The position numbers and the translations under genes were made by a program. A DNA stretch of 43,002 bases from an uncultured bacterium. Lineage in GTDB: Bacteria; Patescibacteriota; Patescibacteriia; Patescibacteriales; UBA12465. The stretch spans positions 1 to 43,002 of the forward strand of contig CALJZR010000027.1 of NCBI GenBank assembly GCA_937983635.1. Reading direction: 5' to 3'. This document shows positions 1 through 21,019 of this stretch, piece after piece. The first letter of the stretch is position 1, and each line of letters begins with the position of its first letter. The notes beneath the pieces were generated by a model. It saw only the letters and a list, made by a program, of their open reading frames with translations, was not told where the DNA came from and ran no database searches.

Positions 1-345
<345 letters not shown>

Positions 346-400
346 CCACACTTTTGTTTTTCAAATAAACATACTTCGAAAATATATAAAAAGACGCCAT

Positions 401-520
401 TGTTCTGGTGGTCAAAGCGGAGGGGTCACACCTGATCCCTTCCCGAACTCAGAAGTTAAGCCCTCCAGCGCCGATGATACTTGGGCCTGAGCCCTGGGAA
501 AGTAGGTCGCCGCCAGAACA
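401..520 (+). rRNA. rrf: 5S rRNA
   Basis: The terminal helix tgttctggtg/cgccagaaca is extended by ccat/atgg. The conserved loop string cccttcccgaactcagaagttaagc is present. Length is ~120 nt and it lies ~55 nt downstream of the 23S end. Confidence 0.9.
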
Positions 521-13930: not shown

Positions 13931-14602
13931 TTATTTCTTAACCTTTTGCTGCTGTTGGCGCCAGGCTTTGATTTTAGCATGGTTGCCTTCGAGGAGGACG
14001 CTTGGTACTTTATATTTTTTACCAGCGGCACTAAAGACGGCGGGGCGAGTATATTGAGGATATTCAAGAGTATTAGTCTCTGAATGCGATTCTTCATTAA
14101 TACTTTCAGCATTGCCTAAGACTTCGGGCAGAAGGCGGGTGATTGAATCAATAATAACTAGAGCGGGGAGCTCACCACCGGTTAAAACATAGTCGCCAAT
14201 GGAAATTTCTGCATCGATAAACTTTTTGATGCGAGCATCAACGCCCTCATAGCGGCCACAAACAAAAATTATCTCTTCTAGTTTAGAATATTGTTTAGCT
14301 AACTTTTGGTTCCAGGTTTTGCCGCTAGCGGACAGGAGAATAACCTTTCTTTTAGCCTCTTTAGTTTTACTTTTCTTTTTTAAATCAGTTAAGGCGGCAT
14401 AAAGGGGCTCAATTTTCATGAGCATGCCGGCACCACCGCCATAGGGAGCATCATCAACCGTGCGGTGACGGTCATTAGTCCAGTCGCGGGGATTATATTT
14501 ATCCAGCTTGATTATTTTTTTATCCAGAGCCCTTTTGATAATACTATCTTGGAGATAGGAATCGAGAATGTCTGGAAAGATGCTTAAAAGTTTGAATTTC
14601 AT
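13931..14602 (-). CDS. trmD: tRNA (guanine37-N1)-methyltransferase
   Basis: 223 aa. Has DDAPYGGGAGMLM and GRYEGVD...SIGDYVLTGGELPA, the SPOUT knot motifs. Confidence 0.95.
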   Translation of the reverse strand: MKFKLLSIFPDILDSYLQDSIIKRALDKKIIKLDKYNPRDWTNDRHRTVDDAPYGGGAGMLMKIEPLYAALTDLKKKSKTKEAKRKVILLSASGKTWNQKLAKQYSKLEEIIFVCGRYEGVDARIKKFIDAEISIGDYVLTGGELPALVIIDSITRLLPEVLGNAESINEESHSETNTLEYPQYTRPAVFSAAGKKYKVPSVLLEGNHAKIKAWRQQQQKVKK

Positions 14603-19764: not shown

Positions 19765-20451
19765 TTAATTCTTGAATTTTTTCTTCAAAAAGTCAATCCA
19801 ACCAATTAGACGGAAAAAAAGAACGACGTTGTTTATTCTTAAATGGATTGTCCCGTGTTGAAGTTTATTTTTAACTTTACTCCGACTAGATTTGCTAATT
19901 ACATGACTTACTCGTAAGAAGTTATTATCATGCAAGCCTGTGGTTTTCTTCCAGAATTCTATATTTTTTGCATCGTCGTTGACGTTGTGAGACATTAATT
20001 GGACCTTGATATCAGATTTTTTTATTGGCAGGAACTTAAAGAAAAACTTTATCATCACTTTAATCATTTCTGGATCTGAGTTAGCAAAATCTATACTTTT
20101 CCACTTACTCCCTTCAGCACCTTTTTTATAGCCTTCGCCCCAATAGAGAGCCAAACCCGTCAGAAATAAAGGGTCATCAGAAAATTTTTTTGCTTCATTC
20201 TCGGCTTTTATTCTATTTTTTCCATGATTTTCTTGCGTTATTTTGCTTCTAAGTTTATTTCTTTGTATTAATTTTATTATTTTTGTAGACCGGACATGCT
20301 GGTTTATTTTTTCTTTTGACTGAGGGTTTAATTCAATATTTTTTAACCAAGAGCTTAAAGTGCTTTTGGGGACATTAAGGCTGTCCCTTATTTGGCTGTA
20401 AGTAAGACCGTTATATCTTAATTTTATCGCTGTAGTTTTATCTTTTCTCAT
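19765..20451 (-). CDS. HTH-domain protein with a LAGLIDADG-like motif, possible free-standing homing endonuclease
   Basis: 228 aa. The N-terminus has a resolvase-type HTH (LTYSQIRDSLNVPKSTLSSWLKNI). Residues ~96-107 read LTGLALYWGEGY (compare LAGLIDADG / LAGFxDGEG), followed by IDFANSDPEMIKVMIKFF. A hand count of a 100-nt sample gives ~31 percent GC. Confidence 0.4.
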   Translation of the reverse strand: MRKDKTTAIKLRYNGLTYSQIRDSLNVPKSTLSSWLKNIELNPQSKEKINQHVRSTKIIKLIQRNKLRSKITQENHGKNRIKAENEAKKFSDDPLFLTGLALYWGEGYKKGAEGSKWKSIDFANSDPEMIKVMIKFFFKFLPIKKSDIKVQLMSHNVNDDAKNIEFWKKTTGLHDNNFLRVSHVISKSSRSKVKNKLQHGTIHLRINNVVLFFRLIGWIDFLKKKFKN

Positions 20452-20498
20452 AAAAAAATGAACCCAATATTATCAATTTATCATGGGTTCATTTTTTT
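20452..20498. terminator. A/T-flanked hairpin between tRNA-Phe and the HTH ORF
   Basis: aaaaaa-atgaaccca-(17-nt loop)-tgggttcat-tttttt. On the minus strand the U-run abuts the ORF start codon. Confidence 0.5.
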
Positions 20499-20511: not shown

Positions 20512-20828
20512 TGCCCCGGGTCAGAATTGAACTGACGACACAAGGATTTTCCTTTATTGGTGCTTAGGTTTCCCTAAGGATTGGACTATATCATCTCCGT
20601 TTTATCAAAAGATAAAGGGCGGAGTCGGGCGCTCGCGGCGGGGTTATTGTTGGGCTCACCCGCTAGTCTCTACACCTTCTTCAATCTAAAACCCGATTGA
20701 AGCTTGGCTCGGGATTGCCTGGCGTAAAACGCTGAAGGTTTCCCCGAATTCACCCGATTTTCATTCCAGTGTTTCCACTGAACGGACCGAAAATCCAGTC
20801 CTTTGCTCTACCACTGAGCTACCGAGGC
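20512..20828 (-). tRNA. tRNA-Phe(GAA), interrupted after U33 by a 245-nt intron (exons 20828..20797 and 20551..20512)
   Basis: The 5' exon is gcctcggtagctcagtggtagagcaaaggact and the 3' exon is gaaaatccttgtgtcgtcagttcaattctgacccggggca. Joined, they give a 72-nt cloverleaf. It has a 7-bp acceptor stem (one G-U), anticodon stem aagga/tcctt, loop cuGAAaa, variable loop gtgtc and discriminator A, as in E. coli tRNA-Phe. Confidence 0.9.
20552..20796 (-). ncRNA. Group I intron (IC3-like) in the tRNA-Phe anticodon loop
   Basis: P1 pairs exon ggacU with intron Ggucc (20788..20784). P10 pairs intron uuuuc (20793..20789) with 3' exon gaaaa. The terminal base is G at 20552. P2 is uucagug-GAAA-cacuggaa and P9 is cuuagg-GAAA-ccuaag. 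The core strings gagccaagc (20710..20702) and gaaggtgtagagactag (20679..20663) match the remembered Azoarcus tRNA-Ile intron. Confidence 0.88.
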
Positions 20829-20847
20829 CTGACTGAAAACAGATTAG

Positions 20848-20920
20848 TTGCGGGAGCTGGATTCGAACCAGCGACCTCCAGGTTATGGGCCTGGCGAGCT
20901 GCCAACTGCTCTATCCCGCT
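20848..20920 (-). tRNA. Initiator tRNA-fMet(CAU)
   Basis: Reverse complement agcgggatagagcagttggcagctcgccaggcccataacctggaggtcgctggttcgaatccagctcccgcaa has an unpaired 1:72 position, A11:U24, G-C pairs closing the anticodon stem and the 3' end GCAA as in E. coli tRNA-fMet. Confidence 0.85.
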
Positions 20921-20945
20921 ATTTTTTAATTTTTGAACGGCAAAG

Positions 20946-21019
20946 TGGGCAATGGAGGATTCGAACCTCCGACCTCAACATTATCAGTGTTGCGCTCTAA
21001 CCAACTGAGCTAATTGCCC
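20946..21019 (-). tRNA. tRNA-Ile(GAU)
   Basis: Reverse complement gggcaattagctcagttggttagagcgcaacactgataatgttgaggtcggaggttcgaatcctccattgccca has anticodon loop cuGAUaa. Confidence 0.9.

What the first reader, a model, noticed from the sequence alone, without database searches (positions are those of the whole stretch)
20512..20828. tRNA-Phe(GAA) gene split after U33 by a 245-nt self-splicing-type group I intron
Two half-tRNAs on the minus strand (20828..20797 and 20551..20512) join into a canonical 72-nt tRNA-Phe. The 245 nt between them show the group I elements in the expected order. The 5' exon ends in U, paired to G in P1 (ggacU : Ggucc). A contiguous guide uuuuc-ggucc also pairs with the 3' exon gaaaa (P10). 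The intron ends in G. P2 and P9 are GAAA-capped hairpins. The core strings gagccaagc and gaaggtgtagagactag are near-identical to what I recall from the Azoarcus tRNA-Ile IC3 intron. The bacterial tRNA group I introns I know of sit in tRNA-Leu(UAA), tRNA-fMet, tRNA-Ile(CAU) and tRNA-Arg(CCU). I am not aware of a tRNA-Phe host or a 33/34 insertion site. U33 is the only U available in this loop for the obligatory U-G pair. If this is the only tRNA-Phe gene, decoding of UUY codons depends on splicing.
Basis: partly seen in the sequence, partly recalled or inferred. Interest (0 to 1): 0.8.

Follow-up and report, generated by a model that had tools for sequence, protein, structure and literature searches.

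The report
Group I intron splitting tRNA-Phe gene
The tRNA-Phe gene of this candidate-phyla-radiation bacterium really is split after U33 by a well-formed 245-nt group I intron, but this intron class ("Phe.2Ug") was already catalogued by computer in 2020 and is common in such bacteria.

Summary
On the minus strand, exons 20828..20797 and 20551..20512 join into a clean tRNA-Phe(GAA). The 245 nt between them score 79.7 bits on Rfam Intron_gpI (cut-off 50).

An intron-less orthologous gene in a relative matches the predicted ligated exons at 71 of 72 positions. Across 57 split tRNA-Phe genes, the P1 guide follows the anticodon stem and the P10 guide follows nucleotide 37. On a 53-sequence alignment, 88% of cells in the proposed fold pair, against 34-50% in shifted controls.

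The host is a Patescibacteria (Magasanikbacteria-like) chromosome: polA-murD-murI-holA, tRNA-Ile, tRNA-Met, the split tRNA-Phe, then tRNA-Pro.

The novelty claims fail. Williams (bioRxiv 2020) lists 21 tRNA settings, including a "Phe.2Ug" seed identical to one of my loci. The classical fMet intron also sits at 33/34.

At the orthologous locus, 8 lineages carry the intron and 5 lack it. No homing endonuclease is encoded. Dependence on splicing is plausible but unproven, because the rest of the genome could not be scanned.

By-products: the core is IC3-like but has an extra P7.1 hairpin, and its loop appears to pair with L6a. Related introns are frequent on viral contigs.

The parts
20797..20828 (-). 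tRNA-Phe(GAA) 5' exon: acceptor 5' strand, D arm, anticodon-stem 5' strand, C32 and U33. The last 5 nt (GGACU, 20801..20797) form the exon strand of P1.
   Evidence: ARAGORN on the spliced sequence and in intron mode. An intron-less orthologue (L125) is identical across this exon.
20552..20796 (-). Group I intron, 245 nt. It starts GGAUUUUCGGUCC and ends ...AAUAAAG, with omegaG at 20552. It has no ORF longer than 39 aa.
   Evidence: RF00028 at 79.7 bits, E = 8.8e-19. Fold supported by covariation and by the MFE structure, z = -3.0. ORF list.
20784..20793 (-). Internal guide sequence. UUUUC (20793..20789) pairs with the 3' exon GAAAA (P10). GGUCC (20788..20784) pairs with the 5' exon GGACU (P1, with U33.G).
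   Evidence: Read from the sequence. In 57 homologues the P1 guide changes with the anticodon stem and the P10 guide changes with nt 37.
20765..20782 (-). P2 hairpin, 7 bp with a GAAA loop.
   Evidence: All 7 pairs show double (compensatory) changes; 94% of cells paired.
20751..20757 (-). P3 5' strand (UCGGGUG). Its partner is 20631..20625 (CGCCCGA).
   Evidence: 100% of cells paired; the 2 outer pairs covary (CG/UA/GC and UA/CG).
20709..20747 (-). P4-P5-P5a domain: P4 is 20747..20742 with 20714..20709; P5/P5a is 20738..20718.
   Evidence: P4 is 99.7% paired and 2 pairs covary. P5/P5a is variable and poorly aligned (47-66% paired). The MFE fold recovers it in the window.
20674..20708 (-). P6 (GCC 20708..20706 with GGU 20676..20674) and the 8-bp P6a hairpin (20702..20679). 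The P6a loop carries GGG at 20694..20692.
   Evidence: In P6a, 7 of 7 aligned pairs covary and 97% of cells pair.
20664..20668 (-). P7 5' strand (GACUA). Its partner UAGUC is at 20588..20584. P7 forms the G-binding helix and is a pseudoknot with P3.
   Evidence: Invariant and 100% paired in 53 sequences. The sequence is the same as in the Azoarcus-type seed.
20638..20663 (-). Extra hairpin between P7 and P3' ('P7.1'): a 5-bp stem GCGGG/CCCGC with a 16-nt loop UGAGCCCAACAAUAAC. CCC at 20654..20652 is the candidate partner of the L6a GGG.
   Evidence: The stem covaries at 3 pairs and is 99.5% paired; the loop is nearly invariant. Loop-loop complementarity test.
20595..20624 (-). P8/P8a hairpin.
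   Evidence: In P8, 4 of 5 pairs covary. The MFE fold recovers it.
20563..20578 (-). P9 hairpin, 6 bp with a GAAA loop.
   Evidence: It covaries wherever it is present. A subfamily lacks it.
20512..20551 (-). tRNA-Phe 3' exon: G34-A35-A36 anticodon, A37, anticodon-stem 3' strand, variable loop, T arm, acceptor 3' strand and discriminator A73. CCA is not encoded.
   Evidence: There is one T-loop difference (A versus G) from the intron-less orthologue.
20452..20498 (-). Terminator-like hairpin after the tRNA cluster: a 15-bp stem followed by a U run.
   Evidence: Folds at -17.6 kcal/mol, z = -4.1. The consensus terminator scan did not call it because the loop exceeds its limit.
20847..21019 (-). 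Upstream members of the same tRNA cluster: tRNA-Ile(GAU) 21019..20945 and tRNA-Met(CAU) 20920..20847.
   Evidence: ARAGORN and Rfam tRNA model. The same cluster order is found in every relative examined.

Best explanation
This is a working group I intron, of the catalogued 'Phe.2Ug' class, inside the chromosomal tRNA-Phe(GAA) gene of a Patescibacteria/CPR bacterium related to Magasanikbacteria.

Proposed mechanism:
1. The Ile-Met-Phe tRNA cluster is transcribed. It ends at a terminator-like hairpin.
2. The intron folds into the P3-P8 core, with P2 and P9 GAAA hairpins and one extra P7.1 hairpin.
3. The guide GGUCC pairs with exon GGACU, placing U33 in a U.G wobble (P1).
4. An external guanosine bound at P7 attacks after U33.
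5. omegaG (20552) replaces it, the guide UUUUC holds the 3' exon GAAAA (P10), and the exons are ligated to give a normal 72-nt tRNA-Phe.

Shown here: the intron's identity, its boundaries, conservation of the fold and guide-exon co-evolution. Inferred: catalysis in vivo, autonomy from proteins, and that this is the cell's only tRNA-Phe gene.

The intron encodes no endonuclease. Its patchy distribution among close relatives points to repeated precise loss, or to gain by recombination through the near-identical tRNA exons (or by reverse splicing), on top of vertical descent.
For: - Rfam RF00028 matches at 79.7 bits, full length. The homologous introns in L001-L004, L127 and L129 score 77-86 bits.
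- ARAGORN finds the split tRNA-Phe with a 245-nt intron.
- The intron-less orthologous gene in L125 equals the predicted ligated exons at 71 of 72 nt.
- I collected 57 split tRNA-Phe(GAA) genes, giving 49 distinct mature tRNAs. The P1 guide matches the anticodon stem: GGACU:GGUCC, GCCCU:GGGGC, GGUCU:GGACC, GGCCU:GGGCC. The P10 guide matches nt 37: GAAAA:UUUUC in 19 cases and GAAGA:UCUUY in 32.
- On the 53-sequence alignment A2, 88.3% of cells pair, against 34-50% when partners are slid. The covariation score is 0.372 against 0.06-0.13. None of 500 shuffles reaches the observed values. P2 and P6a covary at every pair, and P7 is invariant.
- The MFE fold, computed independently, recovers the helices.
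- The intron is 86-93% identical among the close relatives (78-84% to L003), while flanking DNA is about 72-75% identical.
- The context is housekeeping chromosomal genes. Relatives are named Magasanikbacteria, Parcubacteria, Falkowbacteria or Patescibacteria.
- Williams 2020 lists the Phe.2Ug class, and his seed is identical to L058.
- No second tRNA-Phe occurs in the 43-kb window or in 62 loci (443 kb) that hold split copies.
- Lui et al. 2021 needed intron-bearing tRNAs to complete the tRNA sets of closed CPR genomes.
Against: - There is no expression or splicing data of any kind.
- The rest of the genome could not be scanned, so a second, intact tRNA-Phe gene cannot be excluded.
- In the window, P5 lacks a canonical 11-nt tetraloop receptor.
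- P5/P5a and P8a are poorly supported on the alignment (47-66% paired), though this is partly an alignment problem.
- My set of 57 was selected by requiring the U33|...G|GAA junction, so the uniformity of the site is by construction. Only the P1 and P10 complementarity is an independent observation.
Confidence: 0.9

Rival explanations
1. The intron is real but does not splice on its own in the cell. It would need a protein cofactor or chaperone, and the nearly invariant P7.1 loop could be the binding platform.
For: The 16-nt L7.1 loop (UGAG(N)CCCAACAAUAA) is nearly invariant across all sampled members, although the scan pattern itself selected for it in most of them. The window's P5 has no canonical GAAA receptor. 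Many group I introns need proteins in vivo (general knowledge).
Against: Small tRNA introns with the same core (Azoarcus, Anabaena) self-splice in vitro (established knowledge). All core helices and two GNRA loops are present. The L7.1 loop has a plausible RNA partner in L6a that covaries across intron types. No candidate maturase lies next to the intron; the adjacent 228-aa ORF has only a weak HTH match.
Confidence: 0.1
2. The split gene is a decaying pseudogene, disabled by a dead intron, and a separate intact tRNA-Phe gene elsewhere serves translation.
For: The rest of the genome was not available. Default tRNA finders miss the gene.
Against: The exons are under strong constraint: 71 of 72 positions match the intron-less orthologue. 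The intron core is conserved, with compensatory changes and guide-exon co-evolution. Relatives keep their tRNA-Phe at exactly this locus, with or without the intron. No second copy occurs in 443 kb around 62 split genes. Closed CPR genomes rely on intron-bearing tRNAs for a full set.
Confidence: 0.04
3. It is an assembly artefact or a chance resemblance.
For: None found.
Against: The same architecture occurs in independent assemblies from different projects: 4 genome MAGs, several ENA/JGI/NCBI contigs and more than 50 metagenome contigs. The Rfam E-value is 8.8e-19.
Confidence: 0.01

Closest known systems
'Phe.2Ug' group I introns of bacterial tRNA-Phe (Williams 2020, bioRxiv 10.1101/2020.01.27.920355; seed Mba55.Phe.2Ug)
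   Same: Same host tRNA (Phe, GAA), same site (after U33), U-1/omegaG, same core and the same extra P7.1 hairpin with the loop UGAG(N)CCCAACAAUAA followed by AGCGCCC. The two are alignable along their whole length (A2). The seed is identical to L058 in my sample.
   Different: The window's subfamily has the anticodon stem GGA/UCC with A37, so its guides are GGUCC and UUUUC rather than GGGGC and UCUUU. It also has a GAAA-capped P9 that many Mba55-type members lack, and its L7.1 loop is one nucleotide shorter.
Azoarcus tRNA-Ile(CAU) intron (subgroup IC3; 'Ile2.5Ug')
   Same: The P4-P6-P7 core strings are near-identical (GAGCCAAGC, GAAGGUGUAGAGACUAG, AUAGUCC). It also has GAAA loops on P2 and P9, is similarly small and encodes no ORF.
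   Different: It is inserted after position 36 rather than 33 and sits in a different tRNA. It has no hairpin between P7 and P3', and it has a canonical receptor in P5.
Cyanobacterial tRNA-fMet intron ('fMet.2Ug')
   Same: Same insertion site in the anticodon loop, between U33 and nt 34, by Williams' numbering.
   Different: A different tRNA. Some members carry an endonuclease ORF (review text seen). It has no P7.1 hairpin in the seed alignment.
Cyanobacterial/plastid tRNA-Leu(UAA) intron ('Leu.3Ug')
   Same: An IC3-type core in the anticodon loop, and a history that mixes vertical descent with sporadic gain and loss (literature cited).
   Different: Its site is 34/35. It lacks P7.1. Its hosts are cyanobacteria and plastids.
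Phage subgroup IA2 introns (with P7.1/P7.2)
   Same: They also have extra structure between P7 and P3'. Related cores with the same AGAGACUA...AGCGCCC signature are frequent on viral contigs.
   Different: IA2 is defined by two helices, P7.1 and P7.2, joined by G-U-A. Here there is a single hairpin. IA2 introns sit in protein-coding genes and often carry endonuclease genes.

Membership tests
Group I intron (Rfam RF00028) | Score at or above the curated gathering threshold over the catalytic core | tested here: met
   79.7 bits against 50, model positions 1-253, E = 8.8e-19.
Group I intron (Rfam RF00028) | 5' splice site after a U that forms a U.G wobble in P1 with an internal guide | tested here: met
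   GGACU:GGUCC in the window. The guide covaries with the exon in 57 homologues.
Group I intron (Rfam RF00028) | Terminal omegaG, and P10 pairing of the guide with the 3' exon | tested here: met
   The intron ends in G (20552). UUUUC:GAAAA pairs in the window, and the guide switches to UCUUY where nt 37 is G.
Group I intron (Rfam RF00028) | Conserved P3-P4-P6-P7-P8 core, including the P3/P7 pseudoknot | tested here: met
   P3 is 100% paired, P4 99.7%, P6 96%, P7 100% (invariant) and P8 87%. Covariation occurs in P3, P4 and P8.
Group I intron (Rfam RF00028) | Guanosine-dependent self-splicing activity | not testable with these tools
   This needs in vitro transcription and splicing, or RNA-seq.
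tRNA 'Phe.2Ug' intron class (Williams 2020) | Host is tRNA-Phe, the intron lies between anticodon-loop positions 2 and 3 (33/34), and it has U-1 and omegaG | tested here: met
   The nomenclature is defined.
tRNA 'Phe.2Ug' intron class (Williams 2020) | Homology to the catalogued seed intron | tested here: met
   The window aligns with the seed (identical to L058) and 51 other members over the whole core, and shares the P7.1 hairpin and its loop motif.
Subgroup IC3 (Azoarcus/Anabaena tRNA introns) | IC3-type core sequence, and compact periphery (P2, P5, P6a, P8, P9 only) | tested here: inconclusive
   The core strings are identical to the Azoarcus-type seed. An additional P7.1 hairpin, absent from the classical IC3 seeds, is present and conserved. 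No formal subgroup classifier was available, and the definition of IC3 used here rests on my general knowledge.
Subgroup IA2 (phage-type) | Two helices, P7.1 and P7.2, linked by G-U-A | tested here: not met
   There is only one hairpin between P7 and P3'. The criterion is as stated in PMC3428280.
Mobile (homing) group I intron | Intron-encoded homing endonuclease | tested here: not met
   The longest ORF overlapping the intron that lies within it is 39 aa. The adjacent 228-aa ORF shows only a weak HTH match.

The most novel reading that the evidence does not exclude
These CPR tRNA introns and their relatives on viral contigs may form a distinct structural subclass of group I introns. It would have an IC3-like core plus a single P7.1 hairpin whose loop makes a covarying kissing contact with L6a, a contact I could not find described. 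Lacking an endonuclease, the subclass would spread between CPR lineages, and possibly their phages, by recombination through conserved tRNA exons or by reverse splicing. In this organism all Phe decoding would depend on the ribozyme.
Probability: 0.3. Interest if true: 0.5.

Novelty: new member of a known kind. Interest (0 to 1): 0.3.

Why it matters
The practical lesson is about annotation. Default tRNA finders miss this gene, so the genome would appear to lack tRNA-Phe. That affects completeness estimates and codon-usage inference for CPR genomes.

Biologically, it is one more case where a reduced-genome bacterium probably depends on a ribozyme to make an essential tRNA. The family is large and natural (at least 57 members here, 49 distinct host tRNAs) and shows clean guide-exon co-evolution.

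It does not open a new category. The host tRNA and the insertion site are already catalogued, although only computationally and in a preprint, and no member of the class has been tested experimentally as far as I could find.

Tried and rejected
1. My metagenome pattern required TGAG-N-CCC. The window has TGAG-CCC, so that scan sampled the wider Mba55-like family rather than the window's closest kin. I reached the close kin through the junction 29-mer and holA synteny.
2. My first crude regex for the exons mis-assigned many loci. I replaced it with a stricter extraction checked by ARAGORN.
3. Global pairwise identity to the published seeds (70-82%) did not discriminate between classes and is not used.
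4. The primary papers on the fMet intron (PMC395396, PMC179611) are not held. The 33/34 site of the fMet intron therefore rests on Williams' numbering and on the seed's P1.
5. Williams' Table 1 is an image, so the count of Phe.2Ug introns and their distribution by phylum could not be read.
6. The consensus scan found no terminator. A long-loop hairpin was found by folding instead.
7. I considered the 228-aa ORF next to the gene as a free-standing endonuclease or transposase. It gave only a weak HTH_23 match and a sub-threshold IS3 match, so there is no support.
8. Within the Phe family, L6a GGG and L7.1 CCC are invariant, so there is no covariation to read. The signal came only from comparing different intron types.
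9. A 2017 paper that claims 22-49-nt 'group I introns' in cyanobacterial tRNAs was judged irrelevant, because such lengths cannot hold a group I core.

Full report
**1. The observation**

On the minus strand the region reads GCCUCGGUAGCUCAGUGGUAGAGCAAAGGACU | GGAUUUUCGGUCC ... AAUAAAG | GAAAAUCCUUGUGUCGUCAGUUCAAUUCUGACCCGGGGCA.

ARAGORN with default settings reports seven tRNAs in the window and no tRNA-Phe. When I joined 20828..20797 to 20551..20512, it called a clean 72-nt tRNA-Phe(gaa). In intron mode it found the same gene with a 245-nt intron at the same boundaries.

Rfam's Intron_gpI model matches 20806..20562(-) over its whole length at 79.7 bits, against a gathering score of 50, with E = 8.8e-19.
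- P1 is GGACU:GGUCC with a U.G pair.
- The guide UUUUC-GGUCC is contiguous and gives P10 with GAAAA.
- The intron ends in omegaG.
- P2 and P9 carry GAAA caps.

**2. Independent support for the boundaries and the fold**

*Relatives with the same junction.* A 29-mer spanning the 5' junction occurs in four species-representative genomes, all Patescibacteria/CPR MAGs: an uncultured bacterium, Parcubacteria ADurb.Bin115, Ca. Falkowbacteria CG1_02_41_21 and Ca. Magasanikbacteria AMR_MDS_3990. Each has a 77-79-bit Intron_gpI match in the same tRNA cluster. The five introns are 90% identical on average, with compensatory changes in the hairpins.

*An intron-less orthologue.* Using the upstream neighbour holA as a synteny anchor, I fetched the orthologous polA-murD-murI-holA-tRNA cluster from relatives. 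Some of them have an uninterrupted tRNA-Phe at this position. In L125 it equals the window's predicted ligated exons at 71 of 72 positions. This confirms the splice junction by comparison.

With the loci above, this gave 57 tRNA-Phe(GAA) genes split after U33, with 54 non-redundant introns of 195-440 nt and 49 distinct mature tRNAs.
- The P1 guide follows the anticodon stem: GGACU:GGUCC, GCCCU:GGGGC, GGUCU:GGACC, GGCCU:GGGCC.
- The P10 guide follows nucleotide 37: GAAAA:UUUUC in 19 cases and GAAGA:UCUUY in 32.
- The junction itself was a selection criterion. The guide complementarity was not.

*Pair counts on the alignment.* I projected an explicit P1-P10 structure onto a 53-sequence MAFFT alignment.
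- 88.3% of cells pair, against 34-50% when partners are slid by 1-3 columns.
- The covariation score is 0.372, against 0.06-0.13 for the slid versions.
- None of 500 shuffles reaches the observed values.
- P2 and P6a covary at every pair. P3, P4, P7.1 and P8 covary at several pairs. P7 is invariant.

*Single-sequence fold.* The MFE fold of the window's sequence alone recovers P2, P3, P4, P5, P6a, P7.1, P8 and P9, with z = -3.0.

**3. Context and organism**

The gene lies in ordinary chromosomal DNA. The order is polA, murD, murI, holA, tRNA-Ile(GAU), tRNA-Met, tRNA-Phe with the intron, a 228-aa ORF with a weak HTH match, tRNA-Pro, rpsT, rpsO, a NYN-domain gene and pnp. A terminator-like hairpin follows the tRNA-Phe gene.

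The window is 72-75% identical in DNA, over 5-7 kb of synteny, to the Magasanikbacteria and Parcubacteria MAGs. Most named holA relatives are Magasanikbacteria, Falkowbacteria or 'Patescibacteria group', although two MAG entries carry Bacillota or Clostridia labels. The close-relative introns are 86-93% identical (78-84% to L003), so they are better conserved than the surrounding DNA.

**4. Distribution and mobility**

At the orthologous locus the intron is:
- present in 8 lineages: the window, L001, L002 (same as L004 and L135), L003, L127, L129, L132 and L136;
- absent in 5 lineages: L125 (same as L126), L130 (same as L131), L133, L134 and L137.

The two states are interspersed. For example, intron-less L134 has a holA 82% identical to that of intron-bearing L002.

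Intron identity broadly tracks host identity (Spearman 0.65, although the pairs are not independent). There is one clear discordance. The L127 and L129 introns are 96% identical while their holA is 58% identical. L127 and L136 have 88% identical holA but introns only 87% identical.

The intron has no ORF longer than 39 aa, so it encodes no homing endonuclease. The simplest reading is vertical descent with repeated precise loss, plus occasional transfer. The near-identical tRNA exons and the neighbouring tRNA genes offer ready homology for recombination. Reverse splicing is an alternative. This part is inference.

**5. Is splicing essential?**

There is no second tRNA-Phe in the 43-kb window. 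None of the 62 loci holding split copies, 443 kb in total, also holds an intact one. Relatives keep their tRNA-Phe at exactly this locus. Lui et al. [quoted passage not shown]

This makes dependence on splicing likely. I could not scan the whole genome, so it remains unproven.

**6. Comparison with what is known**

Williams (bioRxiv 2020) scanned 80,413 bacterial assemblies and found 5,292 split tRNA genes. He raised the four classical settings (Leu.3Ug, Arg.5Ug, fMet.2Ug, Ile2.5Ug) to 21.

In his numbering, site 3 is CUU/AAAA, which is 34/35. Site 2 is therefore 33/34, and the classical fMet intron already sits there. His seed alignment contains 'Mba55.Phe.2Ug'. That intron is identical to my locus L058 and aligns with the window's intron throughout.

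So both the host and the site are catalogued, though only computationally and in a preprint. I found no other paper describing a bacterial tRNA-Phe group I intron and no experimental test.

Standard tools still miss such genes. The tRNAscan-SE 2.0 paper says the program was not designed to detect them.

**7. How it differs from the textbook IC3 intron**

Between the P7 5' strand and the P3 3' strand there is a conserved extra hairpin, which I call P7.1 (20663..20638). Its stem covaries and its loop, UGAG(N)CCCAACAAUAA, is almost invariant. Azoarcus and the other classical seeds lack it. Williams' Phe, Lys.2Ug and Asn.4Ug seeds have it.

It does not fit IA2, which has two helices, P7.1 and P7.2. 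I therefore describe the intron as having an IC3-like core with one extra hairpin, and I leave formal subgroup membership open.

**8. By-products**

My own rough estimate of chance matches was about five. Only 8 of the 120 get a split-tRNA call. Six carry the same L7.1 loop as the window's family, and four of those six reach the Rfam threshold as full-length group I introns outside tRNA genes.

*A candidate loop-loop contact.* Across 72 distinct L7.1 loop types, the L6a and L7.1 loops of the same intron are more complementary than permuted pairs.
- 18 types have a Watson-Crick run of at least 4, against 7.1 +/- 2.1 in permutations (0 of 500 reach it).
- Outside the CCC class the figures are 17 of 58, against 5.4 +/- 1.9.
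- The partners differ between types: CCAU:AUGG, CGCU:AGCG, CUUUC:GAAAG, UGUAG:CUACA, UGGC:GCCA.
- In the window the partners would be GGG (20694..20692) and CCC (20654..20652).

It should be treated as a hypothesis.

**9. Verdict**

The claimed novelty of host and site is not supported. This is a new member of an already catalogued class that is abundant in CPR metagenomes. Interest is modest: it is an annotation pitfall, probably an essential ribozyme in a reduced genome, and a good natural data set for guide-exon co-evolution. There is some upside if the P7.1-L6a subclass and its phage relatives prove to be undescribed.

Noticed in passing
window 20692-20694 (L6a GGG) and 20652-20654 (L7.1 CCC); loci L138-L257: The loop of P6a and the loop of the extra P7.1 hairpin look complementary in many related introns, and the partner sequences differ between types (CCAU:AUGG, CGCU:AGCG, CUUUC:GAAAG, UGUAG:CUACA, UGGC:GCCA). 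18 of 72 loop types have a Watson-Crick run of at least 4, against 7.1 +/- 2.1 in permutations (0 of 500). This may be a kissing contact. I did not find it described in the searchable literature.
   Followed up: partly
L138-L257 (IMG/VR viral contigs), e.g. L186:8405-8642, L193:8090-8340, L241:2190-2459, L227:57-348 and 1001-1226: Group I introns with the same P7...P3' signature are frequent on viral contigs (at least 120, scan truncated). 112 of the 120 get no split-tRNA call. Six share the window family's L7.1 loop. In L186, L193 and L232 the ribozyme starts just after promoter-like intergenic sequence. What these introns interrupt was not determined.
   Followed up: partly
L009, L026, L031, L032, L035, L042, L052, L053, L057, L060, L062, L064, L098, L117: The same intron family (same L7.1 motif) is called by ARAGORN inside other tRNAs: Gln(CUG), Thr, Asp, Asn, Arg and Leu(UAA). 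This fits Williams' wide range of host tRNAs. The individual calls were not verified.
   Followed up: no
L005, L025, L027 and other 'short-tail' Phe.2Ug members: Many members lack the P9 hairpin. Their 3' tail (for example AGCCUUG| or AUGUUCG|) looks complementary to the anticodon-stem strand of the 3' exon (GGCU, GCAU). This could be an extension of P9.0/P10 that mimics the anticodon stem.
   Followed up: no
L005-L124 tRNA-Phe exons versus window 20547-20551: Two tRNA-Phe types occur among these bacteria: A37 (GAAAA, the window type) and G37 (GAAGA, the Mba55 type). As far as I recall, G37 is unusual for bacterial tRNA-Phe. A trmD (m1G37 methyltransferase) gene lies at window 13931-14602.
   Followed up: no
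window 19765-20451 (-); compare L125:6775-7662, L127:6081-6761, L129:5978-6790: The space around the tRNA cluster is a variable slot. It holds a 228-aa weak-HTH ORF in the window and in L132, a VanW-domain gene in L125 and L134, a Kazal-domain gene in L127 and an HD-domain gene in L129. No link to the intron was found.
   Followed up: partly
window 1-518: The window opens with the 3' end of the 23S rRNA gene (1-349) and a 5S rRNA gene (404-518). The 23S end shows a short deletion relative to the bacterial model near model positions 2815-2831.
   Followed up: no
P0008, P0037 (holA homologues): Some public MAGs that carry this CPR-type syntenic locus are labelled 'Bacillota bacterium' or 'Clostridia bacterium'. 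This is probably mis-binning or mis-labelling.
   Followed up: no
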